Virus record (IMG/VR): IMGVR_UViG_3300008113_000016 | Coordinates: 1-64,000 of that record | DNA: 64,000 bases | Strand: one strand, 5' to 3' | DNA from: a virus | Part shown: positions 20,638 to 42,478 of the stretch, one piece after another | How positions within the stretch are numbered: the stretch's first letter is position 1 | Layout: every line of letters starts with the position of its first letter | Translations under genes and position numbers: made by a program | The notes under the pieces: generated by a model | Told to the model about the DNA's origin: nothing | Databases searched by the model: none | Seen by the model: only the letters and a program-made list of their open reading frames with translations

Positions 20638-21188
20638 TGCCAATTCAAAAGAAATATGCTAGACCCTCAATAGTTGCTTTTACAGAAACAATACCTAATT
20701 CAACAGATGTTGCAAATGGAAGTTTAAATTTTGTTTACCTGACAGACGAAGGTAGATCTCCTTTGGAAATTACATATAACCGTTTAGAGACAAAGAAAAG
20801 AATGATTAATGGTCGAATGAGATCTAGATACATTGCTGATAAAAGAACATTTAGTTTAACATGGACCAACCTTCCCTCAAGATCAAAGAATGGAACAGGT
20901 ACTGAGTTTTATATTACTGAAGCAAAGACTAACAATCAATTTGTTGCTGGAGAAGGAATGCTTAACTGGTACGAAGATCATGGCGGTCAGTTCTATATGC
21001 TATTGTCTTATGACAAATTATACAATTTTGAAACCACAACAAATACTTTAGATGCAACATCTTATAGTCACTTGCAACAAATTAACGAGATAGTTCCAGT
21101 ATACTTTTCTGGATTTAATTTTAGTGTTGAAAAAAGAGGACCTAAGCATGATCTCTGGTCACTAACAATGACCCTTGAGGAGGCTTAA
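20637..21188 (+). CDS. minor tail protein (distal-tail-like)
   Basis: follows TMP; RMING.MR..YIADKR.F.LTW..LP, V.KRG...DLW...MTLEE. Confidence 0.7.
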   Translation: MPIQKKYARPSIVAFTETIPNSTDVANGSLNFVYLTDEGRSPLEITYNRLETKKRMINGRMRSRYIADKRTFSLTWTNLPSRSKNGTGTEFYITEAKTNNQFVAGEGMLNWYEDHGGQFYMLLSYDKLYNFETTTNTLDATSYSHLQQINEIVPVYFSGFNFSVEKRGPKHDLWSLTMTLEEA

Positions 21189-24100
21189 TGCTAGGATCCG
21201 CTACCCTTAAATCATCCTTTGCTAAAGACCCATCAGTTGATGCGTCTTATTTTGTCTTATCTGAAATTAATATTAATCAGTATGCTACGATTGCAAAGTA
21301 TGGGGTATACACGGATACTGTAACTACCACATATCAAGATGTTACAAAGTTTAGAACAGACGTTCCAAAGATATTTTATAACGGTGGATCAGTAACGCTT
21401 GAAGAAGAAGACACTCAAAGATCTAAGTTATATAGTTTAAAGGATTGTTTTAAACCAAGAAGACCAAGATCTGGCTTTGCACACCTAATGTATTATTCAG
21501 ACCTTCCATCTTTTCCAATTAGATTTTCTAAGACAGACATTGAGAAGGGGTACGTCAGATATTATCCTTCTAGAGAAGACGCTAGGTTTAAGTACTGGAG
21601 TTCTGCAACCTCAGAAACAAATACAACGACAGCCATCACCAAGGGCATCTCCTCAAGAACTGCAGCGTCTGGAGCATACCCTATAACAGAAGCAAACCCA
21701 TTTGTTGTTTATGACAAAGGATACTGGTGCAACAAGATTGTAATTAAATTACAAAACTTAGAGGCAGTCCCAAAAACTTGGAGGGTTCAGTATTTAGCAG
21801 AAAATAATTCTTGGACAACTATTGCTACAAACCCAACCATTACATCTTATGCTGGTGGTGCTACTGTTCCAAACAATACATTAGAGTTATTTTGGAATGG
21901 TACTGCTTGGGTAACATCAGTTAACTATAATACGATTGTAGAAGAATTAACTTCTACTGGGGTATATTCTACTACTAGGGCTGTCAAGGTAAAAGGCATT
22001 AGATTATTAGTAGAGTCTTTAGACAGACCAAACCGTGCTTTTGAATTGTTTGAAATGTCTGCCAGACTTTTAGTAAATGTAACAGACTACGTTATAGACT
22101 TCAATGTTGATAAGTCAATTGCGGAATCTAGTGCAGGATTACCAGTAGCAAACATTATTACTGCTTATGGAAGCATGGTCCTAGACAACTCTGACCTAGC
22201 ATTTAACAATGTAAACACATCTTCAATATTATATGGATTAATTAAGCCACAGATTAGGTTTGATATTTTTGAAAAGGCTACAGTTGGATCAACATCAGAG
22301 TATATCCCTATTAAAACTGTGTATGCAGAATCCTTTGCAGAAGATAATAACTTTAATTTAAGTATGACTCTTAAAGACCACATGCTATTTTTACAGACTG
22401 AGATATCTCCAAATGTTTTTGTAGCAAGTGAGTTATCTAATAGTTCGGGTACTAAAATGTCTATTCTTGTTAAGATACTTTTAGACAATATTGGTTTTAC
22501 AAACTTTAGGCTAGAGACTTCAAACAACGCAGATCCAAATGTTTTAAACCAAGAAGATACACCCATTCCATTCTTTTACTCTAACGACAAAGAAACTGTA
22601 ATGGAGACTCTAAACAGAATCAGTGCTGCAACTCAATGCGTATTCTTTTTTGATGAACTAAACGATCTAGTGCTAATGACAAAAGAAAGAATTATGTCAA
22701 AGTCTAGGGCTGTGGACGCTTATTTAATTGGAGAAGAGTTTACTGGTACTGCTCAGAAAGGAAAAGCCTATGCACCTGGATCAGAGTATTGGAAGATTGA
22801 CAATCAGCCACAATCCACTGATCCAAGATTTGGCTTACTGTCAAACATAGAATCATTTAATATTATTAATAACGAGCCAGTAAATGGTGGGACAATTTCA
22901 TATAAGCCTCAGTACTTCTTAAAGAAGCCAATGACAGATAGTTTTCCAGTAAGCAGTATGCAGGGTGGTTTGATAAAGGCTTTCACTGACAACCTTGTTT
23001 ATAACAGCGCACCATTATGGGAGCCAGAAGAAGAGCCACTATCAAGACCAGGAATTTTACAGGGTTCAGAAAGTTCTGGTGCAGCAGCAGTAACGTTATC
23101 TTCAGCAACTCTTATAGAAGACTTATCTGCCTCAAGACCAATAGATATTTTAAGAAATGAAAACCTTTTAGAAGCATCATTTAAAACATCAGACGACGTT
23201 GTAAGATTTTTGGCAATTAATCCCAATAAACTAATGACTATTAAGTTAGACCCAATTGAGTCTTTAACCTTTGGAAGATATGAAAACTATTTAAAGTTAG
23301 ATGAAGAATATGTTAAGTTTAGAGGAAAAATTTTTGAGGTGTCGTCTAGAGATAGTTCTAACAATATTGTTTTTACAGAGAGGGTAATATTTACTCCGTC
23401 GGAATATGAAGATATTGCTGCATCTACACCAGTTGGTGGAGGAATTAGACCAACTGGCAAGTTTGTTATTGATGTAAAGTTTGAGGTTGAAAATGGAAAG
23501 TGGGTATGTAAAACAGACGGAAGAGGTCAGTTCCAAACAGCAATAACCAATCACCAAAGCCTAATCAACCCATCATTAATGACTGATCAAGATTACAAGA
23601 GCGGTCAAAAGACTTATTTGCCAGAAGGATGGAAGGCTGACTCAGTTGTTTTAGAAAATAACTATAAGACAACAAGTGGAAAGATTGCCTCAAAAGATCC
23701 TATGGTTTATACAAACATAGTAAATGAATTTAGGGACGTTGTTAATCAGAACAATATTGAGATTGTTGGTCAGGATGTTAATTACACAGACTATACAGAT
23801 TTAGCAGCAGATGCAATTGAAGATGCTGGATTAGATGTAGATAATATCCCTCTATCTAATGGAACTACAAAGAAAAAGAAATATCAACCAGATCAAGTTA
23901 ACATTGGCATGATTTATAAAAACTTTAATAGAGTATTTGACAGATATAGCACAAGATTGCGTTTGGTTAAATCTAACCGTGGAAATGGTGGCTATGCATC
24001 ATCTAGAATTGCTGGAATGGCATTTGGTCTAAGATCAGATACGGCAACAAACCAATTCTCTGGATACTATGTTGAAATAGAAACAGCAGACTCATTTGAC

Positions 24101-25201
24101 CCTACAGATTCAGAGTCGCTACAAAATAATTTAAGACTATATAGATTGTCATATTCAAATAACAAATATTACAATGTTAAACTTATTGGTTCTAGAACGG
24201 TTGCAGCCTATCACTCAGTAGACAGATTTAAAGACTATGGAAGATATCTTCCAGACGGTCAGCCTAACACAGTATACGATCTTGAGATATCTCACAAATA
24301 TATTGTTGGTGAAGGTTTACAATTTAACATCTTTTTTAATGGATTAAATGTTCTCACAGTATTTGATGAAAGCCCAATAGAACTACAGACTGGGGTAGCC
24401 TTATTTGTTAGAGGTCAATCAGATGCCGTATTTGAATTCTTTAGAGGAGCAGCAGTAGAAAAAACATTAACAAACAATCCTCTGCACGATGAAGATTTTA
24501 TTGAAAAAGCAAGAGGTATTGGATACACTGCAGCGTGGCACTCACTAGCCAAGTATACAATTGGCAACCCTATATTTGTAAACGAAGAGTTTGGCAAGAT
24601 TGCAAGAGAAGCAAGATTCTTTGACATTAGATATAAAACCTATCCAGCAATGAGACCTAGAGTTTTTGATATTAGCGAAATTAATCCAGAGTATTCTATT
24701 ACAAAACAAGAGTTTACTGGTTTTGGTGCAAAGTTTTTGGTTACTAACGTTGGTCGTGGTGACATAGTGTTTGGTGGAAGACAAGCCCCCTATCCACTAT
24801 TTATTTTTGGTATACCTTTGTATGCTGGAGGAGAAAGACAGATCACTGTTGACTCATATCTAAAAGAAACATCCTTAGATGCTAAGTATAAAACAAATGT
24901 TGAAAACAGCAAAAGAGTTTATGGAGAAAAGCAATTTAACATAGGATCAGAATTTATTCAAAAAGAATCAAATGCTCGTAATCTAATGAAGTGGGTAGTT
25001 GAGAATGCTGCAGTTCCAACAGACACAATTAATGCAGAGGTTTTTCCTAATCCGCTTTATCAACTTGGTGATATAGTTAAGGTATACTATCCATCACAAA
25101 AGGTTGACGATACAAAGAGGTTTGTTATCACTAGAATTGAATATGGTGCAAGTAGTGATGGTCCATCAATGAACATAACAGCAAAGGAGGTTCCAGCCTA
25201 A
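21188..25201 (+). CDS. large minor tail/baseplate hub protein
   Basis: 1337 aa; Q..FFFDELN.LV, EEFG.IARE, NP.YQLGDIV C-terminal hub motif. Confidence 0.75.
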   Translation: MLGSATLKSSFAKDPSVDASYFVLSEININQYATIAKYGVYTDTVTTTYQDVTKFRTDVPKIFYNGGSVTLEEEDTQRSKLYSLKDCFKPRRPRSGFAHLMYYSDLPSFPIRFSKTDIEKGYVRYYPSREDARFKYWSSATSETNTTTAITKGISSRTAASGAYPITEANPFVVYDKGYWCNKIVIKLQNLEAVPKTWRVQYLAENNSWTTIATNPTITSYAGGATVPNNTLELFWNGTAWVTSVNYNTIVEELTSTGVYSTTRAVKVKGIRLLVESLDRPNRAFELFEMSARLLVNVTDYVIDFNVDKSIAESSAGLPVANIITAYGSMVLDNSDLAFNNVNTSSILYGLIKPQIRFDIFEKATVGSTSEYIPIKTVYAESFAEDNNFNLSMTLKDHMLFLQTEISPNVFVASELSNSSGTKMSILVKILLDNIGFTNFRLETSNNADPNVLNQEDTPIPFFYSNDKETVMETLNRISAATQCVFFFDELNDLVLMTKERIMSKSRAVDAYLIGEEFTGTAQKGKAYAPGSEYWKIDNQPQSTDPRFGLLSNIESFNIINNEPVNGGTISYKPQYFLKKPMTDSFPVSSMQGGLIKAFTDNLVYNSAPLWEPEEEPLSRPGILQGSESSGAAAVTLSSATLIEDLSASRPIDILRNENLLEASFKTSDDVVRFLAINPNKLMTIKLDPIESLTFGRYENYLKLDEEYVKFRGKIFEVSSRDSSNNIVFTERVIFTPSEYEDIAASTPVGGGIRPTGKFVIDVKFEVENGKWVCKTDGRGQFQTAITNHQSLINPSLMTDQDYKSGQKTYLPEGWKADSVVLENNYKTTSGKIASKDPMVYTNIVNEFRDVVNQNNIEIVGQDVNYTDYTDLAADAIEDAGLDVDNIPLSNGTTKKKKYQPDQVNIGMIYKNFNRVFDRYSTRLRLVKSNRGNGGYASSRIAGMAFGLRSDTATNQFSGYYVEIETADSFDPTDSESLQNNLRLYRLSYSNNKYYNVKLIGSRTVAAYHSVDRFKDYGRYLPDGQPNTVYDLEISHKYIVGEGLQFNIFFNGLNVLTVFDESPIELQTGVALFVRGQSDAVFEFFRGAAVEKTLTNNPLHDEDFIEKARGIGYTAAWHSLAKYTIGNPIFVNEEFGKIAREARFFDIRYKTYPAMRPRVFDISEINPEYSITKQEFTGFGAKFLVTNVGRGDIVFGGRQAPYPLFIFGIPLYAGGERQITVDSYLKETSLDAKYKTNVENSKRVYGEKQFNIGSEFIQKESNARNLMKWVVENAAVPTDTINAEVFPNPLYQLGDIVKVYYPSQKVDDTKRFVITRIEYGASSDGPSMNITAKEVPA

Positions 25202-27835: not shown

Positions 27836-30800
27836 ATGCAAATAAACATTCCTGACCTAATACCTGGAAAAACATATAAAGTTAGACTTAGAGGAGTCAC
27901 CACGGATGGTGGCGTGTCTGAGTGGTCAAGAGTTTATGAATTTGCAGTACCTTCTAATCTTCCAGTTGCTCAACCAATTAACCCTTCAAGTATTGTTATT
28001 ACCCCTCAGTCTGATAAATCATTTTTAATATCTTGGGACAAGGTTGAGAACACAGGAACTCTTGTATTTAGGAATGGAAGATTTGAGATAGAAGGTCTTT
28101 CTAATAAAGGTCTTATCAAAGATTATAGAATTGATATTGGCTGGATAGGAGTTGCACCAAAAGCAAACTACAACCCGTCAGATGCGTATTGGTCTAAAAC
28201 TGCTTTGGGTTCCTTGGCTTCACGAGGAACTACTGCTGACGACACAACATTAATTCCTTTATTCTCAACAACAACAGGAAATAATAAATTTGTATTTAAC
28301 TTAGATGATAACAGTGCTGCATTTTCTGGAGCCAAGGGCGCAATTGCTATTTTTATTAGAGCAAGAACTGTTAACAATCTAGTACTTCCTCAAGACTCAG
28401 TTTATATTGTAGACACAAACAATTTAGTATACTCTGGTGGATTTTCTGGTGGCAATGCTCTTTCAATGGCATCAAGTACATCTACAGCAAATTGGCAAGA
28501 AGGTGGTCTTCAGTTATCTTGGAACCCTGTTGCTAATGCATCATCATACAAGATAGATATAACATCTACTTCTGGATCAACAAAATCATATTATTCTGTA
28601 GACAGTAATTTCTTTTACACTACAGCACAAAATCTTTTAGACTGGGGTGGAGTATTTAATCATCAGGATACTATTAAGTACAGAATATATCCATCAGATA
28701 ACTTTGAGTATTATTCTGGAACATCTGGATCTTCAGTCATATTGAGTAAGTATGGCATTCCAACTCAAGAAAATACAACTGCATTGTCAAATTTTGCTGC
28801 TATTTCAACCAACCTTAGACCAGAGGTTGTTCAAACTTCTGGAAAGTTTGTTGTATATCTGCCACTATCAATTAAGTCTTCTTTACAAACGGGAGATACA
28901 GTTAACTATTATTGGACCCAAGGAACTGTTGAAACTATTAATGGACAAGTTCAATATAATCCAGCACCAGTAACTAGAAACCCAAATAACAAAATCTCTA
29001 CAAGCCTAACCGTTGTAGAAGTTCCATCAGGTGCCAACGCTTCTCTTCAGCATGCTAATTATAGGTTTTGGTTTGGAATTGTAAAAGCAGGGTCTCAAAC
29101 AGAACAGTTTTCTCAAGCATTTCCAGAAGACTCTGTTGTTGGAATTAAGCCTGGACCAATTGTCGATGTAGATTCAGGATATCAACTTATTGCAGAAAAT
29201 GTAAAGTCTGGATCGTATGTATCTAATACTTCTGGATGGCAAATCAATAAGTCTGGTAGTGCAGAGTTTAATAACCTTCTTGCTCGTGGAGTTATTGTAG
29301 CAAAGAGCGGATCATTTGTTGAGTCCCTTAAGGTTGGTAATGCTTTAGGAAATCAATCGATTACATTAGATGGATCAGACCCTCTTGTTGGAAAGATATT
29401 TATTGGAAACGGTCAATACTTTAACACAGGAACTGGATTCTATGTTGACGGAACAGGTAACTTTAGCCTTTCAGATAGACTTGGATATTCACAAGCATTT
29501 AACCTTTTGCAGGTTAATGGAGGAATTAGGCTTACATATCCTTCTGTAGTAGAAGATAACTTTGGTGTTACCTCTGGAACTCTCTATGTTGGTAGTTCTC
29601 CAGTAAGTGGTTCAAGAATTACTCTTACCTCTTCAGGATTAAGATCTTTTGATTCATCAAACAATATAACTTTTGGAATTACTCCAACAGGACCAAGTGG
29701 TTCTGTAGCAGGATGGTCAATTACAGACTTAGACTCTTCTGGAAAATACAATGTTCTTGCATCTACTGCTTCTAAATTTTTCTTAGACTCCAAGCACTCT
29801 AGAGCCGTATTTGGTAGTTTTGCAGGAAGTAATAGACTTCAGATTACTGCCAACTCAATATCTAATGCAAACTTTCCAAATGTTAAACTAGGATTGGATA
29901 CAGAAAGTATCTCAGCACAGATTTCATCTGTTGTTGGTATGACAATTAACTCAAACACTTTCTCATTAAATCACGGTTCAAGATCAGTAAAAATAGGAAA
30001 CACGGGAGTAGACATTGTTGGACCAGTTAAACTTAATCTAAACAATATTGAAAGAACCACTGCTGGATCTACACCATACGATATGGTTGTTATGGACACA
30101 AGAGATGGTCAACTATATAGAGTTCCTTCAGCAACATATAACGTAACCACAGCAGCACCAGTATTAAAGAACACAGTAACTACAACAGTTCCTAATGTGA
30201 TTGGTCTTACTTTAAATTCAGCCTTGTCAACCGTACAAACAGCAAACCTACAAACAAGAATATCGGATACAACTATTATTACTAGCAATGCCTTGCTAAA
30301 CGGAGTCATTGCAACACAAAGCCCAATGTCATACACGTCTGCTGACGTAGGATCAACAGTTTATCTTTCTATTTACGAATACTCATCTTCTGGTCTATCT
30401 TTGGTTCAGGTACCTAACTCATTAAGTGAAAACGATGTTGTTGCTAAAAATACAATTGAGGCAATAGGATTAACATATAGAGTTAGAAGTTCAATTAATA
30501 CTACTAACCCTGCACTATATAATAAGATTGCAGAACAAGATCCAATTCCAGGAACATATGTAAAACCTGGAACAACCGTTAACGTTGTTTTGTATCAGCC
30601 AGAGGGTGCTGCAACAGTTCCGAATGTAATTGGTTTAGGACAAACTCCAGCAACTACAGCACTTACTGCTTTAGGTTTTTCTGTAACGGTCAACAATATA
30701 ACAACTTTGCAGTCAACACTAAACAATTTAATTTACACACAGTCTGTTGCCCCTGGAACAAGTTTAAGAGTAGGTTCTACAGTTGTACTAAACAAACTTG

Positions 30801-33800
30801 TTTATACAAGCGGAAGTCCAGCAGCCCCAACATCTGGAGTAGTTCCAGACCTATTTGGATACTCTTTGACGCAGGCTAATCAAAGAGCAAATACTTCTGG
30901 ATATGGTATTAGCCTTGTAGCGGGTGTTCCAACAGAAAATCCAGATCTTGCAGACAAAATTTATTCTCAGTCTCCTGCTCCAGGAACAAGTCTTACAAGT
31001 GGATCATCTATATCTGTTACAACATACAACCTAGTATCTTTTAAAACAGTTCCAAACGTTTTGGGCTTAACAACAACAAATGCAACCTCTCTTATTACTG
31101 CTGCAAACCTACAGGCTGAAGTTGTTGGAGATGTTGAGTACGTCGATTCAAGTATTGGTTTAGACTTTTCCTTTAAGGTTAAATCTATAAGTTCAACTGC
31201 ACAGTTAAACGGTCAATCTTATCCAAATCAAAACATGTACTTTTTTGTGGAGTCAACTAAATACAATGAAGCAGATACCCCTCTATCTGATGATGACTAC
31301 ACTTTATTTCCTCCATTTTCAGTAAAGATTGGAAATACCTATAAGGTAGATCAAAGCGATTCTTCAAATACTGGAAGAGCAATGTTCTTTAGCACTACAA
31401 CATCGGAAAGCAATGTTTTAACTCCATTTCAGGGTATTAGATATTATATTAATAATCAACAGGTACCAGACTATGCTGCGTATAAGGCAGCATTTAATAC
31501 TGCCACAAGCCGTTATGTAGTTATAACACCATCTTCTCAAACACCTTCAACATTTAAATACAGATGTTCTGCTGCAGACTCTAATGTTTTATTAGACTCA
31601 TCATCTCCAGACGCAGCAAAATTAACCTTAGACTCAGATAACCTAACTGGAACTGTTGCATATCAGATTCCAGTTTCTGGCTCAAAGATGATTACAGACA
31701 CAAAGATTAAGTTGTATAGATATAAAGTTGTTGGGGCAAGAGGAACAACGGCAGCACCTCAATTTTATCCAGCACCAAATACAAGTGGTTTAACAAGAAC
31801 TGACGCATCTTTAGTTGTTCAAAATACTAAATTGATTCCAGTGATTTATGAAACAAAAGTTTTGGCTACTGCTGGAACAGATAACTTTGTTTATGCTCAA
31901 AATCCACAGGCTGGATCATTTTTGGAAGAAAATAGCAACGTAAACCTTTTTGCGTATAAAGTTGTTACATCTTTCCAAAATGGTAGAACTATACCAAACC
32001 TTATTGGAAATAGTGCAACCTCTGCATTTACAGCCTTGAATGCAATCAACCTACAAAATGTTATTAATTACTATACAACTTCAAATCAATCTCTAGACAA
32101 TATTGTTTTTGATCAGTTCCCTAAGTCTGGAACAGTAGTTGAAGATGCTTCTACCATGGTAATAAGCGTATACAAGTTTGAAGAAGAGTCCACTACAACA
32201 ACTACGACAACTGCTGCGCCAACCACTACAACTACAACAACAGCAGCCCCAGGAACTGTTTTTGTTAACGCCCCACAACTCTTAAACCTAACCTTTAGTG
32301 CTGCAGTCTCTTCCCTGACCTCACTTGGTCTTATATATCAATCTGAAACCGTTAACACATCTAACCCAGACCTAAACAATAAAGTTTATTCTCAGTCTCC
32401 AGTAGCAGGAACATCTTTGCCAGTTGGATCAAGCGTCACAGTTTATTACTACACATATGTTGGTGCTACAACAGCAAGCCCAATTGTTACAACCACATTG
32501 CCACCAGCAAATACTGCAACGGTACCAAACGTTGTTGGATTGACGGAAACTCAAGCAAAGTCTACTCTAACCACAAATTCTTTTGTTGGTGTTACAACAA
32601 CAGAAACTTTGACAGCAGAGCAGTCATTAAACAATATAGTTTATGCACAATCTCCAAGTGGAGGAAACTCTGCTACAGTTTCTTCAAACGTTGCACTATC
32701 TGTTTACAGATGGAATGGAAGTACCCCCGCACCAGTTACTACGACAACAACCACGACAACTGCTGCCCCAACAACCACAGCAGCACCTACTACATCTGCC
32801 CCAGGAACAACCTCTGCTCCAAACCAAACATCTTCCGTAAGTAGTTTATCTCCTACAAGTGGGTCAACTGCTGGTGGTTATAGCGTTACAATTTATGGAA
32901 CTTTTCCTACTCCAATTACCAATATTTCGGTTGCTGGAACTAATATTGCTGTAAACAGTTGGAGCCAATCATCTTCTTCAATTTCTTTCCCAATGCCATC
33001 AAGATCTGCTGGTACTGTAGGAATTCAAGTCTTTAATGGACTGACCCCACTAATGTCTGAACTATCATTTACATATACATCTGGAACAACTGCTGCAACC
33101 AATGGACCAGTTCCAAACGTAGTTGGACTTTCATATGATAGTGCATTTACAACACTTTATAATGCTGGTTTCCAGGTTGATGCCTCTGTTGCCAGTACAA
33201 CTGTCGCTTCTAATGATCAAAAGGTTTACGCTCAAGCACCTTCTGGAAATAGCACAGCAACATATGGAACAACAGTTAATATTTATTTTTACCAATATAG
33301 TGGAACTACAACTGCAGCACCTACATTAAAACTTTGTACTCAAGCAGATGTTAGTAACATTAACAATGCTTGTACTGTTGTAAATACTTGTAGATCATAC
33401 GGAAACGGTGCTTCTTGTACAACAGACCAAACTACAACTACTACAACAACTACTGCTGCTCCTTCAGGCGCAACATGGTACTGTACATACTCTGTTTGTA
33501 ACCCATTCTCTGGATATTATTCTACACAGCCATCAAACTATGGAACTTATTCAACGGATCAATCAACAACTTATGGTGGTGGAAGTTCTTACACTAAGAT
33601 TGCTTGTAATACAACCGCTTATAATATTTCTGCAGCAGCACAGGCTCCTTGCGAGTCAGTTGCTACTACCACTACAACTACAACAACTGCAGCCCCTACT
33701 ACAACCACAACAACGGCTGCTCCAACATATTATTATGCTTCTTGGTGTTCATATGGTCAATGCTACACTGACTATGTTTCTACAAGTTGCGCTACAATGA

Positions 33801-34672
33801 GAAACTTAGCAGAAGCAGATTCTGGTGGATCGTTTAGTGGATTTACATGCTCTACATCTGGATATCCACCATGCCCTGCTGCTTGTTCTGGAGGTCAAGT
33901 AACAACTACTACAACCACAACAACAACCACAGCAGCACCAACAACATGGTATTGTACTTACTCTGTATGTCGTGGAACTTCTGGCGCATATATTACTAGC
34001 CCACAAGTTTATGGAACTTATTCTTCAAACCAAACGGCTACATCCTCTAGCGGTGGAAACACTACTAAGATTGTTTGCTATACAACTGGATACGATGTTA
34101 CAGCAGCACAGCAACCAGCATGCGAAGGATTTACCACTGCTGCACCAACTACAACCACAACAACTACTACATCTGCTTCTTGCGTTTGTGTATACTCTGA
34201 TTATGGAACATATTATTATTCACCACAGTGCTGTTCTTCTGGAGCACCAAGATCTGGTTCTTTAAGTGGGGTTACTTCTGGAGACTGCTGTCCTAACGTT
34301 AATAAGGCTACAACTGCTGCTCCCACAACAACGGCTGCTCCTACAACCACTGCTGCACCAACTACAACTTCTGCATCTTGTGTTTGCGTCTATTCTGACT
34401 ATGGAACATATTACTTTGCTCCTCAATGCTGTCCAGCAGGTGCACCAAGATCTGGAGCATTAAGCGGAACAGCATCAGGATCATGTTGTCCAGATGTTGC
34501 AAAGGCTACATCAGCACCAGCCACAACTACAACAGCAGCACCTGCTACTACAACCACTGCTGCAGCGTCTGGAAGATTCTGTACTTCTGCTAATATTGCA
34601 AACCCATCAAATCCATGCTACAGTACATCTCAGTGCAGTTCACAAGGAAGCGGTAGTTTATGTTTCGTATAA
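27836..34672 (+). CDS. giant tail-tip/fibre protein: Fn3-like N-term, ~10 PASTA domains, IPT/TIG, Thr-rich linkers, Cys-rich modules
   Basis: LIPGKTYKVRLR..SEWS (Fn3); SG.Y....SGWQI...GSAEFN (host-specificity-J-like motif); repeated VPNV.GL....A...L......Q.P..G..V..G..V.L; SLSPTSG..AGG..VTIYG. Confidence 0.85.
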   Translation: MQINIPDLIPGKTYKVRLRGVTTDGGVSEWSRVYEFAVPSNLPVAQPINPSSIVITPQSDKSFLISWDKVENTGTLVFRNGRFEIEGLSNKGLIKDYRIDIGWIGVAPKANYNPSDAYWSKTALGSLASRGTTADDTTLIPLFSTTTGNNKFVFNLDDNSAAFSGAKGAIAIFIRARTVNNLVLPQDSVYIVDTNNLVYSGGFSGGNALSMASSTSTANWQEGGLQLSWNPVANASSYKIDITSTSGSTKSYYSVDSNFFYTTAQNLLDWGGVFNHQDTIKYRIYPSDNFEYYSGTSGSSVILSKYGIPTQENTTALSNFAAISTNLRPEVVQTSGKFVVYLPLSIKSSLQTGDTVNYYWTQGTVETINGQVQYNPAPVTRNPNNKISTSLTVVEVPSGANASLQHANYRFWFGIVKAGSQTEQFSQAFPEDSVVGIKPGPIVDVDSGYQLIAENVKSGSYVSNTSGWQINKSGSAEFNNLLARGVIVAKSGSFVESLKVGNALGNQSITLDGSDPLVGKIFIGNGQYFNTGTGFYVDGTGNFSLSDRLGYSQAFNLLQVNGGIRLTYPSVVEDNFGVTSGTLYVGSSPVSGSRITLTSSGLRSFDSSNNITFGITPTGPSGSVAGWSITDLDSSGKYNVLASTASKFFLDSKHSRAVFGSFAGSNRLQITANSISNANFPNVKLGLDTESISAQISSVVGMTINSNTFSLNHGSRSVKIGNTGVDIVGPVKLNLNNIERTTAGSTPYDMVVMDTRDGQLYRVPSATYNVTTAAPVLKNTVTTTVPNVIGLTLNSALSTVQTANLQTRISDTTIITSNALLNGVIATQSPMSYTSADVGSTVYLSIYEYSSSGLSLVQVPNSLSENDVVAKNTIEAIGLTYRVRSSINTTNPALYNKIAEQDPIPGTYVKPGTTVNVVLYQPEGAATVPNVIGLGQTPATTALTALGFSVTVNNITTLQSTLNNLIYTQSVAPGTSLRVGSTVVLNKLVYTSGSPAAPTSGVVPDLFGYSLTQANQRANTSGYGISLVAGVPTENPDLADKIYSQSPAPGTSLTSGSSISVTTYNLVSFKTVPNVLGLTTTNATSLITAANLQAEVVGDVEYVDSSIGLDFSFKVKSISSTAQLNGQSYPNQNMYFFVESTKYNEADTPLSDDDYTLFPPFSVKIGNTYKVDQSDSSNTGRAMFFSTTTSESNVLTPFQGIRYYINNQQVPDYAAYKAAFNTATSRYVVITPSSQTPSTFKYRCSAADSNVLLDSSSPDAAKLTLDSDNLTGTVAYQIPVSGSKMITDTKIKLYRYKVVGARGTTAAPQFYPAPNTSGLTRTDASLVVQNTKLIPVIYETKVLATAGTDNFVYAQNPQAGSFLEENSNVNLFAYKVVTSFQNGRTIPNLIGNSATSAFTALNAINLQNVINYYTTSNQSLDNIVFDQFPKSGTVVEDASTMVISVYKFEEESTTTTTTTAAPTTTTTTTAAPGTVFVNAPQLLNLTFSAAVSSLTSLGLIYQSETVNTSNPDLNNKVYSQSPVAGTSLPVGSSVTVYYYTYVGATTASPIVTTTLPPANTATVPNVVGLTETQAKSTLTTNSFVGVTTTETLTAEQSLNNIVYAQSPSGGNSATVSSNVALSVYRWNGSTPAPVTTTTTTTTAAPTTTAAPTTSAPGTTSAPNQTSSVSSLSPTSGSTAGGYSVTIYGTFPTPITNISVAGTNIAVNSWSQSSSSISFPMPSRSAGTVGIQVFNGLTPLMSELSFTYTSGTTAATNGPVPNVVGLSYDSAFTTLYNAGFQVDASVASTTVASNDQKVYAQAPSGNSTATYGTTVNIYFYQYSGTTTAAPTLKLCTQADVSNINNACTVVNTCRSYGNGASCTTDQTTTTTTTTAAPSGATWYCTYSVCNPFSGYYSTQPSNYGTYSTDQSTTYGGGSSYTKIACNTTAYNISAAAQAPCESVATTTTTTTTAAPTTTTTTAAPTYYYASWCSYGQCYTDYVSTSCATMRNLAEADSGGSFSGFTCSTSGYPPCPAACSGGQVTTTTTTTTTTAAPTTWYCTYSVCRGTSGAYITSPQVYGTYSSNQTATSSSGGNTTKIVCYTTGYDVTAAQQPACEGFTTAAPTTTTTTTTSASCVCVYSDYGTYYYSPQCCSSGAPRSGSLSGVTSGDCCPNVNKATTAAPTTTAAPTTTAAPTTTSASCVCVYSDYGTYYFAPQCCPAGAPRSGALSGTASGSCCPDVAKATSAPATTTTAAPATTTTAAASGRFCTSANIANPSNPCYSTSQCSSQGSGSLCFV
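30185..33300 (+). repeat. array of ~10 PASTA-domain coding repeats
   Basis: units start VPNVIGL, VPNSLSE, VPNVIGL, VPDLFGY, VPNVLGL, APNTSGL, IPNLIGN, APQLLNL, VPNVVGL, VPNVVGL. Confidence 0.85.
32189..34565 (+). repeat. dispersed Thr-rich (T4-9)AAP mucin-like linkers
   Basis: TTTTTTAAP / TTTAAP blocks encoded by mixed ACA/ACT/ACC/ACG codons. Confidence 0.9.
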
Positions 34673-34688: not shown

Positions 34689-35354
34689 ATGAAAGAAGTT
34701 CTAAGAATGCCTAATCTAGTTGGACTAGATGTTGGTGCAGCAACCCAAATGCTAAACAGTTTTGGTTTTCAAAATGTAGAGTTTCAGCCAGTAATTCCAA
34801 AAGATCAAAACTCTACGATTAATATGGTTTATCACCAAAGCGTACAGTTTGATACAGACATTAAAGCATTTGACGCTATTACAGTTTACTATTACTATAA
34901 AGAAGAAAAGCCCAACGAGTACTATGCTTTTGTTGGAAAAGACACATTGGTAAACACAGTAACTGGAATGAAGTTTGTTTCAGACCTTATGGCAAAAGAT
35001 GTTATTCTTTCTTTAAATGATCAGTCTTTAGCAAAAAGTGGACAGGCTCCAGAAGACCCAGTTTTAGGAGTAATCTATCAAGTTAAGCCTATAAGTTTTA
35101 AATGGTATTGGGCAATCAACGACATGACGGTTGGATATCAGCAAGAATTCCTTATAAAAAGAAATGGAATTTGGGCTTACATTATTGCTGACGATTTAAA
35201 AGTTGGAGACACAGGATTAAACTCAGAACTAGTAGAAACTCAGATAACTAGCAAGGTAAGAATAGATGCTCCAATTAGCGGATATCAATTGTTAATTGTT
35301 GACTCTAAGCCAATCATTACGGAGTCATTTGTAATCAGAACAAGAACGGAGTAA
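34689..35354 (+). CDS. PASTA domain + degenerate Hint (intein-like) domain protein
   Basis: MPNLVGL..GAA...L PASTA; AFVGKDTLV....G.K.V.DL...D.ILSL, IKRNG.W.YI.A.DLKVGD, I.S...I......Y.L Hint-like pattern. Confidence 0.65.
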   Translation: MKEVLRMPNLVGLDVGAATQMLNSFGFQNVEFQPVIPKDQNSTINMVYHQSVQFDTDIKAFDAITVYYYYKEEKPNEYYAFVGKDTLVNTVTGMKFVSDLMAKDVILSLNDQSLAKSGQAPEDPVLGVIYQVKPISFKWYWAINDMTVGYQQEFLIKRNGIWAYIIADDLKVGDTGLNSELVETQITSKVRIDAPISGYQLLIVDSKPIITESFVIRTRTE

Positions 35355-35357
35355 TTG

Positions 35358-36338
35358 ATGAAGAAGTCTATCTTCATACAAATTCCTTCCTATAAGGACT
35401 ACGAACTTGAACCTACAATTCTAGACTGTATCAATAAGTCTTCTGGCAAGTTTGATTTAAGGTTTGGAGTTTCTTTACTTGTTCATGGAAAAAACGATGT
35501 ACCAGTTCCAAAGTTATCTAATGTTCATGTAACTAGATTAACATTTGATGATGGCTATGGTGTTGGATTTTCTAGAGCAAGGGCTAACGAATGGTATGCT
35601 GGAGAAGACTACTACTTTCAAATTGATTCACATGAAAGGTTTAAACCAAACTGGGATCTATACCTAGTTTTAGAATTAGAAAGATTAAAAGCAAATGGAT
35701 ACAATAAGCCATTAATGTCTGGATACCCTCAGAATTATTGGTTTAATGATTATGGTATGCCAACATATTTTGATGATGACTATATAACTAGTTTTAAATT
35801 TGTAGATAAAAATATTACTCAATTTTCAGAAACAGGAGTGTTAGATCAAACTGCACACCTTAATGATAAAAGCAGAACAATCAGAGCAAGATCATCTTGT
35901 GCTGGAATGGTGTTTACTGTAGGAGACTACGGTCTTATAAAGCCAAATGAAAAGATTATGTTTTGGGGAGAAGAAAACCTACAGTCTGCAAGAGCAATCA
36001 CTAATGGATTTAGTTTATTTACTCCTCAAAAGAATGTTGTTTACCATCAGTATTTTGCAAAGAGTGAAGAGAACAGAAGCCACAAAAGAAATAAAAGAGC
36101 GCATGTTTGGTCAGACCTAAGAGATCATGGATTTGACGACTGGCATCAAAAAGATGAGGCTGGAAAAGAGTATCTAGTTAATCTATTTAAAAACTGGGAG
36201 ATAAGTCAAGAAGGACTAGGCAGCGTTGTAAGTAAAGAACTGTATACTCTATACACTGGGATAGATCACGACTTGCGTTCTTTGACAGAAGATGCTATAA
36301 TGGGAACTGAACCAAACGACTTATTAAGGAATATATAA
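35358..36338 (+). CDS. GT60-like glycosyltransferase (polypeptide/hydroxyproline alpha-GlcNAc transferase family, GT-A fold)
   Basis: SIFIQIPSYKD.EL..TI, GVG.SR..AN..Y.GEDYYFQIDSH.RF..NWD, KPLMSGYP, F.GEE...SARA.TNG. Confidence 0.8.
   Translation: MKKSIFIQIPSYKDYELEPTILDCINKSSGKFDLRFGVSLLVHGKNDVPVPKLSNVHVTRLTFDDGYGVGFSRARANEWYAGEDYYFQIDSHERFKPNWDLYLVLELERLKANGYNKPLMSGYPQNYWFNDYGMPTYFDDDYITSFKFVDKNITQFSETGVLDQTAHLNDKSRTIRARSSCAGMVFTVGDYGLIKPNEKIMFWGEENLQSARAITNGFSLFTPQKNVVYHQYFAKSEENRSHKRNKRAHVWSDLRDHGFDDWHQKDEAGKEYLVNLFKNWEISQEGLGSVVSKELYTLYTGIDHDLRSLTEDAIMGTEPNDLLRNI
36273..36301 (+). promoter_or_regulatory. promoter embedded in glycosyltransferase 3' end
   Basis: TTGCGT-17 nt-(TGC)TATAAT. 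Confidence 0.6.
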
Positions 36339-39078: not shown

Positions 39079-39274
39079 GGTTCGTGTTGGACTAAAGTAT
39101 GTAAGAAACTTAGGAAACTATGAAAGCATACACGTTGATATTGGCATAGAAGACTGGGTAAGAGATTCAGATCAAGGAACCTCTTCAGCAGTTGACAGGG
39201 TTTATGCGTTTGTAGAAGGAAAACTACTTGAGAAGATGAAGAGTATTGAGGAGGAAATTAATCATGTCGTTTAA
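39059..39274 (+). CDS. hypothetical protein
   Basis: V.VGL.Y..NLGNYES...D.G.ED. Confidence 0.7.
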   Translation: MMKETTKVRVGLKYVRNLGNYESIHVDIGIEDWVRDSDQGTSSAVDRVYAFVEGKLLEKMKSIEEEINHVV

Positions 39275-40484
39275 AGAAGAAGCAGAGGTAATCTCTGCAG
39301 TATGCAAGAATAAAGATATTTATGTTCTTTACGAGAACAACGTAGATCCAATGATGACAAATTGTGGGGATATGTGGTCTTTTATTAAGGATTACTATAA
39401 CGAAACAAAAAGCGTTCCAAATGTAGACTTAATTCAGTCAAGATTTAAAGATTTTACCCCAGTAGAATCAGGACCTACAATCTATCATGTAAACAGATTA
39501 AAAGAAGTGTATCTTGCAGATGCTTTAAAAAATGTATTAAGAAAGTCTGCTAACTTTGTTCAGTCTGGAGAAAACTCTTCTGCCCTTAATCTTTTGAGTT
39601 CAGAGGTTTCTAACATTGCTAGAATTACATCTCGTGTTAAAGACGTTGACGTTACAGACATTGATGATGCGGTTGCCCACTTTGACTACGTTCAAAAGAT
39701 GGCAGCAGAAGGTCGTGTTGGAATCAGAACTGGAATTAAATCACTAGACATATGCTTGCCTATGGGAATTGCTGACGGTCAACTTGGAATTATGCTTGCG
39801 TATCCAGCAATTGGAAAGTCTTGGCTGGCACTGCATCTTGCAGCACAGGCATGGAAGGTTGGCAAGAAGCCAATGATCATTAGTCTTGAAATGACTGAGA
39901 AAGAAGTTAGAAATAGAATCTATACAATTCTTGGTGATGGAAAATGGTCTCATAGAAAGTTAAGTTCTGGAGATGTTGACAGAGAAGAGTTTGCAGCGTG
40001 GGCAGATGAAAATCTAAAGGATAAGCCTAAGTTTAAGATTATTTCTATGGACGGAGAAAGTGCTATGACACCAAATCTAGTTCGTGGAAAGATTGATCAA
40101 TACAAGCCAGATATTGTATTTATTGACTACCTACAATTAATGACAGATAATGGAAACACTTCTGGTAGCGAAGTCATTAAGGTTAAGAACCTTTCAAGAG
40201 AACTTAAACTATTAGCAATATCATGCAACTTACCAGTTGTAGCCATTACGTCTGCAACCCCAGACGATGCACAAGACCTAGAATCTGTACCACAATTAGG
40301 TCAGGTTGCTTGGTCAAAACAGATTGCGTATGATGCAGACTGGATTTTGGCTATGGGAAGAAAAGCACATAGTACTGCACTAGAGGTCGCTTTTAGAAAG
40401 AATAGAAACGGTTCTTTAGGAGACTTTATTATGAATGTAGACTTTGACTCTGGAAGATTTAAAGAAGTATTTGATATATCATAA
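39264..40484 (+). CDS. dnaB: DnaB-like replicative helicase
   Basis: AYPAIGKS Walker A, ISLEM, FIDYLQLM, SRELK.LA, IAYDAD, KNR; ATG 39264 after GAGGAGG. Confidence 0.92.
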   Translation: MSFKEEAEVISAVCKNKDIYVLYENNVDPMMTNCGDMWSFIKDYYNETKSVPNVDLIQSRFKDFTPVESGPTIYHVNRLKEVYLADALKNVLRKSANFVQSGENSSALNLLSSEVSNIARITSRVKDVDVTDIDDAVAHFDYVQKMAAEGRVGIRTGIKSLDICLPMGIADGQLGIMLAYPAIGKSWLALHLAAQAWKVGKKPMIISLEMTEKEVRNRIYTILGDGKWSHRKLSSGDVDREEFAAWADENLKDKPKFKIISMDGESAMTPNLVRGKIDQYKPDIVFIDYLQLMTDNGNTSGSEVIKVKNLSRELKLLAISCNLPVVAITSATPDDAQDLESVPQLGQVAWSKQIAYDADWILAMGRKAHSTALEVAFRKNRNGSLGDFIMNVDFDSGRFKEVFDIS

Positions 40485-40505
40485 GGGGGGTATAATTGTT
40501 ATGGA

Positions 40506-40853
40506 ATGGAATTCATACAGCCCAAGAACCTTAAGATGTTTATGTACGAAGGAGAGTACTCAGATGAGTCTGACGTTATCAGGCTCAAGGCTCAATATGA
40601 AAAACTATTGATCTCCTATATGAGGTCTAAAGGATATCTGAGACAGATTGACTTAGATCCAGTCTATACTGTAGACTATAACGGTAAGACTTTTAAGTTT
40701 GAATTATTTATGTATGGCATTTATGTCGGAAAGAGAAGGTCACAGTGTTACCAGTTCGTAATGGGAACAAGGCTTATACCGATGAGCAATTTACCGCAGA
40801 GCAAGTTAAATCAGTGTTGCAAGAATGCGGAATCAGTATTGGGTCGGAATTAG
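40506..40853 (+). CDS. hypothetical protein
   Basis: 115 aa, preceded by GGGTATAAT; overlaps primase. Confidence 0.65.
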   Translation: MEFIQPKNLKMFMYEGEYSDESDVIRLKAQYEKLLISYMRSKGYLRQIDLDPVYTVDYNGKTFKFELFMYGIYVGKRRSQCYQFVMGTRLIPMSNLPQSKLNQCCKNAESVLGRN

Positions 40854-41704
40854 AGACTCATTATTTAATTTATTGTCCATTTCACTATAACGTCAATACC
40901 CCTGCTTGTGAAGTAGATAAGACAAAGGGTTTGTTTATTTGTTTTTCTTGTAATGAAAAGGGAAGCCTATTTGATATTGTCACAAAGACAACAGGCAGAA
41001 AGTATTTTGAGGCTAGACGGTTTATTAATGGCAAGTCTACAGAAACTGTTAATATTGCAGAGACAATTGAGACAAACGTTGAGCCAATGCCAGAGTTTCA
41101 ACCTTTTGATATGGAGTTGATTAACTCACTGCACGAACAACTGTTAAAGTCTGATAGGGCTAAGTCTTATCTTTATAACAGAGGGATAAACGACTTTGGT
41201 ATCAAAAACTTTTTAGTAGGTTACTCTGAAAAGCAAGATATGATTACAGTTCCAGTATATAGTCCAGAAGGATTATGTGTTGGATTTGTTGGAAGATCCA
41301 TAGAAGGAAAAGTTTTTAAGAATAGTATAAATCTGCCAAGAAACAAAACATTGTTTAATTTATCAAACGTAAAGTACACTTCAGATGTTGTGGTTGTAGA
41401 ATCAAGTTTTGATTGTATTAGGCTGTGGCAGTTGGGTATCCCTGCTGTGGCTACACTAGGGGCAATGATTGGCTCAAGGCAGATATCTTTAATGTCTAAG
41501 TATTTAGAGACAATGATTTTGGCTATGGATCATGACGATGCAGGCAAGTCTTTAGAGAATAAGATTAAACAAGCATTACCTAACAAAAGCATATCCTCAA
41601 TGGAGTTTCCAGATAACTACAAGGACGTTGGGGCTATGTCAGATGAAAGCATTAAGCATTACTGGCGCAAGTCCTCTGAATTTGACGAACTGCTTTCTTT
41701 TTGA
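40745..41704 (+). CDS. dnaG: DNA primase (CHC2 Zn finger + TOPRIM)
   Basis: CPFH...CFSC, GFVGR, VVES.FD, D.DDAG, KDVG. Confidence 0.9.
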   Translation: MLPVRNGNKAYTDEQFTAEQVKSVLQECGISIGSELETHYLIYCPFHYNVNTPACEVDKTKGLFICFSCNEKGSLFDIVTKTTGRKYFEARRFINGKSTETVNIAETIETNVEPMPEFQPFDMELINSLHEQLLKSDRAKSYLYNRGINDFGIKNFLVGYSEKQDMITVPVYSPEGLCVGFVGRSIEGKVFKNSINLPRNKTLFNLSNVKYTSDVVVVESSFDCIRLWQLGIPAVATLGAMIGSRQISLMSKYLETMILAMDHDDAGKSLENKIKQALPNKSISSMEFPDNYKDVGAMSDESIKHYWRKSSEFDELLSF

Positions 41705-41710
41705 TATAAT
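41682..41710 (+). promoter_or_regulatory. near-consensus promoter for SSB gene
   Basis: TTGACG-17 nt-(TGA)TATAAT. Confidence 0.8.
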
Positions 41711-41759
41711 AGTATCAACAGGCTCACTTATAGAGCCAACTACTTAAGGAGTATAAATT

Positions 41760-42419
41760 ATGGCTGTAATTACAGGTCTCAAGAATATCCAAAAGGTTAT
41801 TGAGAAACCAAAGGGTGCAATGGATGCACCAAAAGCAACTTGGCTAAAACTAGAAGATGGTCAAGGAATCAAAGTACGTTTTATTAACGAAGTAGACGGA
41901 GACTCAAAGTTTTACGATGAAAATCGTGGTCTTGCTATTGTCGTTGCTGAACACACAAATCCAAAAGATTATCGTCGAAAGGCTGTTTGCACTATGGACG
42001 ACGAAGGTCGTTGCTATGGTTGCGAAATGGCTAGAAAAGAACCAAAGACTGGCTGGAAGGCACGTCTACGCTTTTACTGTAACGTTCTTGTTGACGATGG
42101 TAACAAGGATCCGTATGTTGCAATTTGGTCACAAGGTGTTGGTCCAAAGGTAACAAGCACAAATACAATCTTTGAATACGCATCCGACAACGGATCAATT
42201 TCAAATTTGATTTGGCGTTTAAAAAGAAATGGAACTGGAACACAAACAAATTATGTTCTAATTCCTATTGCACCAGACACAGAAACATTTGATTGGTCTG
42301 GAATTGAACCGTATGACTTGCAAAAGTCTGCAATTAGAAATGTAAACTATCCAGATCAAGAATCATTCTACATGGGCTTGATCGAAGATACAACAACCTC
42401 TACTGCTGTAGATTGGTAA
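41760..42419 (+). CDS. single-stranded DNA-binding protein (gp32-like, Zn-binding)
   Basis: WLKL.DG...KVRF, EH..C...C..C, KRNG.G..TNY, acidic tail ending DW; between primase and polymerase. Confidence 0.7.
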   Translation: MAVITGLKNIQKVIEKPKGAMDAPKATWLKLEDGQGIKVRFINEVDGDSKFYDENRGLAIVVAEHTNPKDYRRKAVCTMDDEGRCYGCEMARKEPKTGWKARLRFYCNVLVDDGNKDPYVAIWSQGVGPKVTSTNTIFEYASDNGSISNLIWRLKRNGTGTQTNYVLIPIAPDTETFDWSGIEPYDLQKSAIRNVNYPDQESFYMGLIEDTTTSTAVDW

Positions 42420-42423
42420 AAGA

Positions 42424-42459
42424 TTGGGTGGGGAGTTTAGCCATTTACTCCCCACCTAA
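42424..42459 (+). terminator. 13-bp hairpin between SSB and dnaE (no U-tract)
   Basis: TTGGGTGGGGAGT/ACTCCCCACCTAA. Confidence 0.55.
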
Positions 42460-42478
42460 CACAAACAGATAGGAAGAC

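What the first reader, a model, noticed from the sequence alone, without database searches (positions are those of the whole stretch)
30185..33300. About ten tandem PASTA domains in a phage tail-tip protein
Seen: ten ~65-aa units matching VPxVxGLxxxxAxxxL...QxPxxGxxVxxGxxVxL, plus an eleventh in the next gene. Established: PASTA domains normally occur on Gram-positive Ser/Thr kinases (PknB/PrkC) and PBPs, typically 1-5 copies, and bind muropeptides or lipid II. Inference: a host sensor domain repurposed as a multivalent receptor-binding rod for nascent peptidoglycan (poles/septa), or a mimic of PknB ectodomains.
Basis: partly seen in the sequence, partly recalled or inferred. Interest (0 to 1): 0.8.

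Follow-up and report, generated by a model that had tools for sequence, protein, structure and literature searches.

The report
Phage tail fibre built from PASTA domains
An uncultured lake phage that probably infects actinobacteria has a 2278-residue tail fibre whose middle is a string of ten genuine PASTA domains, the wall-sensing module of bacterial kinases and penicillin-binding proteins. Other uncultured phages carry similar arrays, so this looks like an undescribed way of building a wall-directed fibre, but no binding has been tested.

Summary
One ORF (window 27836-34672, 2278 aa) carries ten PASTA domains at aa 785-1824. Pfam PF03793 gives E 2.4e-65. Nine domains are intact. The fifth is split by an orphan insert of about 150 aa. 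The next gene holds an eleventh PASTA. AlphaFold models match solved PknB, Stk1 and PBP1 PASTA structures.

The gene lies in the tail module of a 96.5-kb IMG/VR phage that encodes WhiB, has 38% GC, and recurs almost unchanged in at least 11 freshwater studies. The array sits between an N-terminal fibre part and C-terminal Cys-rich modules on Thr stalks.

- Ten copies is not a record. Secreted cellular proteins carry up to 24.
- This phage is not alone. A 755-aa protein with 6-7 PASTAs sits downstream of the tape measure in at least 9 viral contigs, one of them a complete 19-kb genome. A 103-kb WhiB-encoding phage has a 3-PASTA protein among its fibre genes.
- The repeats are old (23-32% identical) and no donor is visible.

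My best reading is a fibre shaft that also gives weak, multivalent adhesion to peptidoglycan or lipid II. Binding is untested, and a purely structural spacer remains a strong rival. No paper describing PASTA in phage tails was found. Earlier notes of this scan reported PASTA proteins beside tail-fibre genes on other DNA.

The parts
27836..34672 (+). Tail fibre / minor tail protein gene, 2278 aa (P0001)
   Evidence: Single ORF. It lies in the co-directional tail module after the tape measure gene 14710-20637. It is intact in independent assemblies.
27836..28090 (+). N-terminal module of about 85 aa, FN3-like, probably the attachment end
   Evidence: Partial fn3 match at aa 3-35. Several unrelated proteins match query aa 3-85 at their own residues 5-85, which supports the chosen start codon.
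29063..29314 (+). Phage_Tail_Tip (PF09327) segment, aa 410-493
   Evidence: 26.2 bits against a cut-off of 22. tblastn matches lambda-type J / central tail fibre genes at aa 390-515. This is the only part of the N-terminal 784 aa that has relatives among 1.84 billion representative proteins.
30188..31039 (+). PASTA domains 1-4 (30188-30391, 30410-30610, 30617-30814, 30842-31039)
   Evidence: The AlphaFold2 model has pLDDT 89 and each unit shows one helix followed by strands. The best Foldseek matches in the PDB are PknB 2kui/5e12 (E 2e-12) and Stk1 3m9g.
31049..31156 (+). PASTA domain 5, N-terminal half (aa 1072-1107)
   Evidence: Matches positions 1-36 of my repeat HMM, E 7e-11. Pfam half-match of 19.5 bits.
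31157..31603 (+). Orphan insert of about 150 aa inside PASTA 5 (aa 1108-1256)
   Evidence: No Pfam match. The only homologue is a fragment of the same gene. The Atlas search returned only unnamed viral clusters. The model is of low confidence here.
31604..31738 (+). PASTA domain 5, C-terminal half (aa 1257-1301)
   Evidence: Matches HMM positions 27-67, E 4e-13. MAFFT splits every intact repeat across the insert. In the model both halves have pLDDT above 90 and together align to one solved PASTA domain: Z 10.3, rmsd 1.2 A over 58 residues with 7o4c, and Z 10.1 with 5e10.
31772..32722 (+). PASTA domains 6-9 (31772-31972, 31991-32188, 32270-32467, 32522-32722), with Thr-rich linkers between 7, 8 and 9
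32834..33076 (+). IPT/TIG domain (aa 1667-1747)
   Evidence: PF01833, E 2.5e-9, 37.4 bits against a cut-off of 20.9.
33110..33307 (+). PASTA domain 10 (aa 1759-1824)
   Evidence: 40.1 bits.
33308..34669 (+). Distal C-terminal part: Cys-rich small modules on Thr/Ala/Pro stalks
   Evidence: Translation and composition. No Pfam match. A 198-nt DNA repeat lies at 34161-34527.
34689..35354 (+). Next gene, 221 aa: PASTA 11 (34707-34907) followed by a weak Hint-like part
   Evidence: PASTA at 23.4 bits (cut-off 23.2). PT-HINT at 17.1 bits, below its cut-off of 27.7. PASTA at 25.4 bits in the six-frame scan.
35355..36338 (+). GlcNAc-type glycosyltransferase (PF11397). It is a neighbour and may decorate the Thr stalks.
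   Evidence: E 1.2e-30. The PHROG annotation is glycosyltransferase. The link to the fibre is inference only.

Best explanation
P0001 is a virion tail fibre of an uncultured freshwater phage that probably infects an actinobacterium. Its N-terminal third, an FN3-like start followed by a lambda-J-like fibre segment, joins it to the tail tip. The middle 1040 residues are a beads-on-a-string shaft of ten PASTA domains plus one IPT/TIG domain. The distal end carries Cys-rich modules on Thr-rich stalks. I read the PASTA array as doing two jobs. First, it is an extended spacer; I estimate about 30 nm from the linear PknB ectodomain, which is my own inference. Second, it is a low-affinity, multivalent adhesin for stem-peptide features of peptidoglycan or lipid II that holds the tail on the wall, while the distal modules or the insert in PASTA 5 supply specificity and the tape measure's M23 peptidase opens the wall. 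Shown here: domain identity, fold, gene position, and recurrence in other phages. Inferred: presence in the virion, the ligand, and the division of labour.
For: PASTA identity by sequence: Pfam E 2.4e-65; 10 in-gene six-frame matches (9 above cut-off) plus 1 in the next gene; a profile of the repeats hits Stk1 3m9g (1e-13) and PknB 2kui (2e-12). PASTA identity by fold: model pLDDT 89, with only PASTA structures among the top PDB matches. The split domain reassembles into one PASTA fold, Z 10.3. Tail context: tape measure with a C-terminal M23/lysin domain, minor tail proteins, and a PF09327 match. Host: WhiB is present and the habitat is freshwater. Recurrence with the same layout (N-terminal anchor, PASTA array, C-terminal domain): a 755-aa protein with 6-7 PASTAs lies three genes after the tape measure and two genes before a collagen-like fibre in a complete 19.3-kb phage and in 8 more viral contigs. 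A 3-PASTA protein lies among the fibre genes of a 103-kb WhiB-encoding phage. Phage PASTAs in two of these families have about four times the aromatic content of cellular ones (9% against 2.4%) and more Ser/Thr/Asn, as sugar-binding surfaces often do. Published work shows that PASTA ectodomains bind muropeptide or lipid II and localise to septa and poles (PMC6428115; PMC9426605).
Against: No binding data exist for any phage PASTA. In PknB only the PASTA3-4 linker contacts the ligand and the other domains act through length (PMC6428115), so most units may be inert. The aromatic enrichment may partly reflect the low GC content. The C-terminal position of the Cys-rich modules suggests that they are the primary receptor binders, not the PASTAs. 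Virion incorporation rests on gene order alone. The host is unidentified beyond the WhiB marker, and its closest WhiB matches lie on short, probably mis-binned MAG contigs.
Confidence: 0.5

Rival explanations
1. The array is a purely structural shaft. PASTA domains are used only as small, stable, linearly stacking beads that set fibre length, as FN3 or Ig-like arrays do in other fibres, and they bind no ligand.
For: The array lies mid-protein, between the anchor and the distal modules, in all three phage families. Domain length as such matters in PknB (PMC6428115). The repeats are as diverged from each other as from cellular PASTAs, which shows no conserved ligand-binding surface. A near-invariant Tyr in the last strand may serve inter-domain packing.
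Against: Three unrelated phage fibre families chose the same wall-associated domain rather than the common Ig or FN3 folds. A further single PASTA sits on a separate small protein next door. Phage PASTAs are enriched in aromatic and polar residues.
Confidence: 0.3
2. The array acts as a septum- and pole-targeting device or as a mimic of host PASTA ectodomains. It binds lipid II or uncross-linked nascent peptidoglycan specifically, or pairs with the ectodomains of host PknB or PBPs, so that infection is directed to growth zones or host wall signalling is disturbed.
For: PknB PASTAs bind mDAP-type lipid II, and this binding sets septal and polar localisation (PMC6428115). The phage repeats score best against kinase-type PASTAs in the PDB.
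Against: The published ligand-binding site is the PASTA3-4 linker of PknB, which offers no evidence that PASTA domains in general bind ligand, and I did not test whether the phage repeats keep such residues. No kinship to a particular host PknB domain was found. Lipid II lies at the membrane beneath the wall and is hard for a fibre to reach from outside.
Confidence: 0.15
3. The protein is not a virion component. It is a secreted or lysis-released adhesin or moron product that happens to be encoded in the late region.
For: Most long multi-PASTA proteins in public data are secreted cellular proteins with signal peptides. There are no proteomic data.
Against: P0001 shows no N-terminal signal-peptide-like or membrane-spanning stretch by eye. 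It carries a J-type fibre segment. It is tightly packed within the tail operon, 8 nt after the preceding tail gene. The analogous gene in the 19-kb phage sits between the tape measure and a collagen-like fibre.
Confidence: 0.05

Closest known systems
Extracellular PASTA region of Ser/Thr kinases PknB (M. tuberculosis), PrkC/Stk1 (S. aureus, B. subtilis) and StkP (S. pneumoniae)
   Same: Same domain family and fold; linear strings of units of about 65 aa. These are the best PDB matches by profile and by structure.
   Different: The kinases have 3-5 units on a membrane-anchored kinase. Here there are ten units with no kinase and no membrane anchor, inside a phage fibre. One unit carries an inserted domain. 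The composition is much richer in aromatic residues and Ser/Thr/Asn.
PASTA domains of class B PBPs (PBP2x, S. aureus PBP1) and PonA2
   Same: Same fold. 7o4c (PBP1) is the top structural match for the split unit, Z 10.3.
   Different: The PBPs have 1-2 units at the C-terminus of a transpeptidase. They match the repeat profile more weakly (2mgv E 0.009).
Lambda gpJ-type central tail fibre, and phage fibres with arrays of Ig-like or FN3 domains (the latter from my own knowledge of the literature)
   Same: Distal tail protein after the tape measure. PF09327 segment. Beads-on-a-string accessory domains that may give weak surface adhesion.
   Different: Only about 85-105 aa resemble J; no J hub domains were detected. 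The repeated bead is PASTA rather than Ig or FN3.
Multi-PASTA tail proteins of other uncultured phages: the P0166 family in IMG/VR contigs L016-L024, and the 3-PASTA protein L013:6527-7906
   Same: Anchor, PASTA array, distal domain layout. Position in the tail module. Low GC (39-42%). Similar aromatic-rich PASTA composition.
   Different: No sequence kinship outside the PASTA fold. They have 3-7 units, no Thr stalks or Cys modules, and no inserted domain. The P0166 family lacks WhiB.
Secreted cellular multi-PASTA proteins (P0152 with 24 units, P0153 with 18, P0154 with 14, P0162 with 13)
   Same: Long PASTA arrays without a kinase or PBP.
   Different: They have signal peptides and often C-terminal membrane anchors or enzyme domains. 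They are not in a phage context, and their function is unknown.

Membership tests
PASTA domain (Pfam PF03793) | Match to the family HMM above the curated cut-off | tested here: met
   216.8 bits summed. Nine in-gene units are individually above 23.2 bits, and so is the unit in the next gene.
PASTA domain (Pfam PF03793) | Fold of one helix packed on a small beta-sheet, about 65 aa | tested here: met
   AlphaFold2 pLDDT 89 with a repeating helix-then-strands pattern. Per-domain TM-score 0.86 and rmsd 1.7 A to PknB PASTA4 5e0y. Split unit Z 10.3 to 7o4c.
PASTA domain (Pfam PF03793) | Binding of muropeptide, lipid II or beta-lactam | not testable with these tools
   This needs biochemistry. Published ligand residues lie at the PknB PASTA3-4 linker and are not a general motif of the family (PMC6428115).
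PASTA kinase / PBP ectodomain | Fusion to a Hanks kinase or a transpeptidase through a membrane span | tested here: not met
   No Pkinase or Transpeptidase match in P0001. The protein is not a member of these proteins; only the domain is shared.
Lambda J-type central tail fibre | Phage_Tail_Tip (PF09327) segment | tested here: met
   26.2 bits against 22, aa 410-493. tblastn matches J genes.
Lambda J-type central tail fibre | N-terminal hub-forming domains of J | tested here: inconclusive
   No Pfam, PHROG or PDB sequence match for aa 1-409 apart from an fn3 fragment. The 1337-aa gene at 21188-25201 may be the hub.
Virion tail protein | Encoded in the tail module after the tape measure | tested here: met
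   Gene order: tape measure, 183 aa, 1337-aa minor tail protein, 583 aa, 292-aa tail protein, P0001.
Virion tail protein | Physical presence in particles | not testable with these tools
   There is no proteome or structure for this uncultured phage.

The most novel reading that the evidence does not exclude
A set of uncultured freshwater phages has turned the bacterial wall-sensor module into a receptor-binding device. The PASTA array would recognise uncross-linked stem peptides or lipid II and so steer adsorption to septa and poles, making nascent peptidoglycan itself the phage receptor. The domain inserted in PASTA 5 would be a new specificity module.
Probability: 0.2. Interest if true: 0.8.

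Novelty: new variant of a known kind. Interest (0 to 1): 0.6.

Why it matters
The receptors of phages that infect the abundant, hard-to-culture freshwater actinobacteria are unknown. A fibre built from the host's own peptidoglycan-sensing module gives a concrete, testable candidate: binding to wall or lipid II. It would also add PASTA to the small list of domains that phages reuse for adhesion, such as Ig-like, FN3, CBM, LysM and SH3b domains. The arrays could also become wall-targeting probes. The split PASTA shows that this fold tolerates the insertion of a whole domain. I found no description of PASTA in phage tail proteins in the searched literature.

Tried and rejected
- **Cultured and deposited phages.** megablast and tblastn of the fibre and of two PASTA blocks against 50,697 phage records gave only J-type hits and three PASTA hits. 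The best, MT835527, is a bacterial priA-rsmB-rlmN-prkC-rsgA operon filed as a phage. I did not open the other two (MT835764 and a 386-kb Staphylococcus record); I suspect they are also host DNA. The G003 PASTA protein also found nothing.
- **Relatives of the fibre.** The N-terminal 784 aa searched against 1.84 billion representatives returned only a fragment of itself and weak hits to aa 445-520. The IMG/VR scan with the whole protein found none, and neither did the scan with the next gene.
- **Donor or recent amplification.** The phage PASTAs are as far from one another (33-43% best identity) as from cellular ones (35-47%). There are no DNA-level repeats in the array. No donor could be named.
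- **Microdiversity as a guide to the receptor-binding part.** The gene is almost invariant in four runs, so nothing can be learned from it. The depth spike at 33800-34083 is low-complexity Thr-codon DNA shared with other organisms.
- **Insert domain.** No Pfam match, no homologues, the Atlas search returned only unnamed viral clusters, and the model confidence is low. The fold is unknown.
- **Host.** The closest WhiB matches lie on short MAG contigs labelled Arenimonas, Polynucleobacter and others, probably mis-binned phage DNA, so they give no host. The putative terminase large subunit (window 349-2277) found no match in the other PASTA-bearing phage records.
- **CisA.** The CisA paper named in earlier scan notes does not mention PASTA.
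Full report
**What is there.** The finding lies inside one ORF, window 27836-34672 (+), 2278 aa. Pfam finds PASTA (PF03793) in 10 stretches, E 2.4e-65, and a Phage_Tail_Tip segment (PF09327) at aa 410-493. A six-frame scan of the 96,513-bp genome finds PASTA only here: nine units above the cut-off, one half-unit, and one more unit in the next gene.

An HMM built from the repeats themselves gives the following map:
- Intact units at aa 785-852, 859-925, 928-993, 1003-1068, 1313-1379, 1386-1451, 1479-1544, 1563-1629 and 1759-1824.
- A split unit at aa 1072-1107 plus 1257-1301.
- One unit at aa 7-73 of the 221-aa neighbour.

An IPT/TIG domain (aa 1667-1747, E 2.5e-9) lies between units 9 and 10. 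After unit 10 come Cys-rich modules on Thr/Ala/Pro stalks, which have no Pfam match. The stated coordinates and the count of ten plus one are therefore correct. The word "tandem" needs the qualifier that one insert, several linkers and one IPT domain interrupt the array.

**Is it real?** The repeats are only 23-32% identical to each other, and the array contains no DNA-level repeat, so this is an old array. Contigs from four public runs in three studies cover the gene with 0-2 differences in 8.5 kb and bridge the PASTA region.

**Fold.**
- A profile of the ten intact repeats (nine from the fibre, one from the neighbour) hits S. aureus Stk1 (3m9g, 1e-13), M. tuberculosis PknB (2kui, 2e-12) and, weakly, PonA2.
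- AlphaFold2 on aa 785-1068 with a 39-sequence alignment gives pLDDT 89 and four helix-then-strand units. The low pTM of 0.38 means that the angles between domains are not defined.
- Every strong Foldseek match in the PDB is a PASTA structure, led by PknB 2kui/5e12 at E 2e-12. The per-domain TM-score is 0.86 to 5e0y.

**The split unit.**
- MAFFT opens a gap of 163 columns in every intact repeat rather than aligning it to one half.
- In the model of aa 1069-1312 both halves have pLDDT above 90, while the insert is below 50.
- The two halves together superpose on single solved PASTA domains: 7o4c Z 10.3, rmsd 1.2 A over 58 residues; 5e10 Z 10.1.
- The alignment given to the predictor favours this outcome, so it is consistent with an inserted domain but is not independent proof.
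- The insert has no relatives other than a fragment of the same gene.

**Context.** The record is an IMG/VR virus, linear, with CheckV completeness of 83%. The gene order is:
- tape measure protein (1975 aa, with a C-terminal M23/lysin domain)
- a 183-aa protein
- a 1337-aa minor tail protein
- a 583-aa protein
- a 292-aa tail protein
- P0001
- the 221-aa PASTA plus weak Hint-like protein
- a GlcNAc-type glycosyltransferase

These genes are all co-directional and tightly packed. The phage encodes WhiB, the marker used to recognise actinophages (PMC9878933). Its GC content is about 38%. It is found almost unchanged in at least 11 freshwater or lake studies. The exact host could not be named.

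**Comparison.** Long PASTA arrays are not unique. Metagenomic proteins carry 24, 18, 14, 13, 11 and 10 units, and most of these have signal peptides and are presumably cellular surface proteins. Kinases in the same sample have 2-5 units.

Two further phage cases emerged:
- **The P0166/P0172/P0208 family.** These proteins are 755-766 aa, lack a signal peptide, and have an N-terminal Trp-rich motif plus a poly-Pro stretch, 6-7 PASTAs and a C-terminal domain of about 195 aa. The family occurs in 9 IMG/VR contigs. One of these is a complete 19,343-bp genome with terminal repeats. There the gene lies three genes after the tape measure and two genes before a collagen-like fibre. Its GC content is 38.8% and it has no WhiB.
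- **A 103-kb WhiB-encoding phage.** Its GC content is 41.6%. It has a 459-aa protein with 3 PASTAs among its tail-fibre genes.

Among 50,697 deposited phage records no true phage PASTA was found, and the best hit is mis-filed bacterial DNA. No paper in the searched library links PASTA to phage tails. Earlier notes of this scan report a PASTA-headed small protein next to a lake-phage fibre gene, and PASTA membrane proteins in the fibre slot of contractile injection systems. I did not test those notes.

**Mechanism.** In all three phage families the array lies between an N-terminal anchor and a distal C-terminal domain, which is the position of a shaft. In PknB the ligand (mDAP-type lipid II or muropeptide) contacts the PASTA3-4 linker, the total length of the array also matters, and ligand binding sets septal and polar localisation (PMC6428115). 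I therefore read the array as a length-setting shaft that probably also gives weak multivalent adhesion to peptidoglycan-derived ligands. The Cys-rich tip modules, and possibly the PASTA 5 insert, would supply specificity, and the tape measure's M23 domain would cut the wall.

Phage PASTAs have about 9% aromatic residues against 2.4% in cellular ones, and about 30% Ser/Thr/Asn against 21%. This fits sugar or wall contact, but low GC content may contribute. Binding, virion presence and the ligand are all inferred.

The purely structural reading is the main rival. A septum-targeting device or PknB mimic is possible but unsupported, and no donor lineage is visible.

**Verdict.** This is a new variant of a known kind, namely phage fibres built from borrowed adhesion domains. 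It recurs in uncultured low-GC phages and appears to be undescribed in print.

Noticed in passing
window 35355-36338 and 33308-34669: A GlcNAc-type glycosyltransferase (PF11397, E 1e-30) lies two genes after the Thr-rich, mucin-like stalks of the fibre. It may O-glycosylate the fibre. Another note of this scan covers the same idea.
   Followed up: partly
window 34689-35354: A stand-alone 221-aa protein has one PASTA followed by a Hint-like part that scores only 17.1 bits, below the cut-off of 27.7. No relatives were found in IMG/VR.
   Followed up: partly
window 14710-20637: The 1975-aa tape measure protein ends in an M23 metallopeptidase / lysin-like domain (aa about 1750-1900). This fits a host with a substantial peptidoglycan wall to cut through.
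   Followed up: no
window 31157-31603: The insert of about 150 aa inside PASTA 5 is an orphan with no family, no homologues and no confident fold. It is a candidate specificity module.
   Followed up: partly
G000:C1:70472-70645 (outside the window; L010:1501-1674): A WhiB-like gene with four Cys and the GVWGG turn. Its closest matches lie on short freshwater MAG contigs labelled Arenimonas, Polynucleobacter and others, which are probably mis-binned phage DNA.
   Followed up: partly
L001 (MT835527.1 27855-46514): A GenBank record labelled 'Bacteriophage sp.' carries a bacterial priA, rsmB, rlmN, prkC (kinase plus 4 PASTA), rsgA block and a PBP. It looks like bacterial DNA filed as phage.
   Followed up: yes
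L011:9500-17086: A provirus record ends in a 2528-aa RHS/teneurin-like YD-shell protein with six N-terminal PASTA domains and NHL repeats. It may be a wall-anchored polymorphic toxin.
   Followed up: no
window 33800-34083: Contig depth rises to about 1000 in the lake metagenomes over the ACA/ACT (Thr codon) repeats. Many other organisms or phages in these lakes therefore carry similar Thr-stalk DNA.
   Followed up: no
window 2911-5352: An 813-aa protein with a Laminin_G_3 / concanavalin-like lectin domain lies among the head genes. It may be a capsid decoration or adhesion protein.
   Followed up: no
window 39246-47254: The phage carries its own DnaB-like helicase, a primase, a 1089-aa DNA polymerase III alpha subunit and a RecA.
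   Followed up: no
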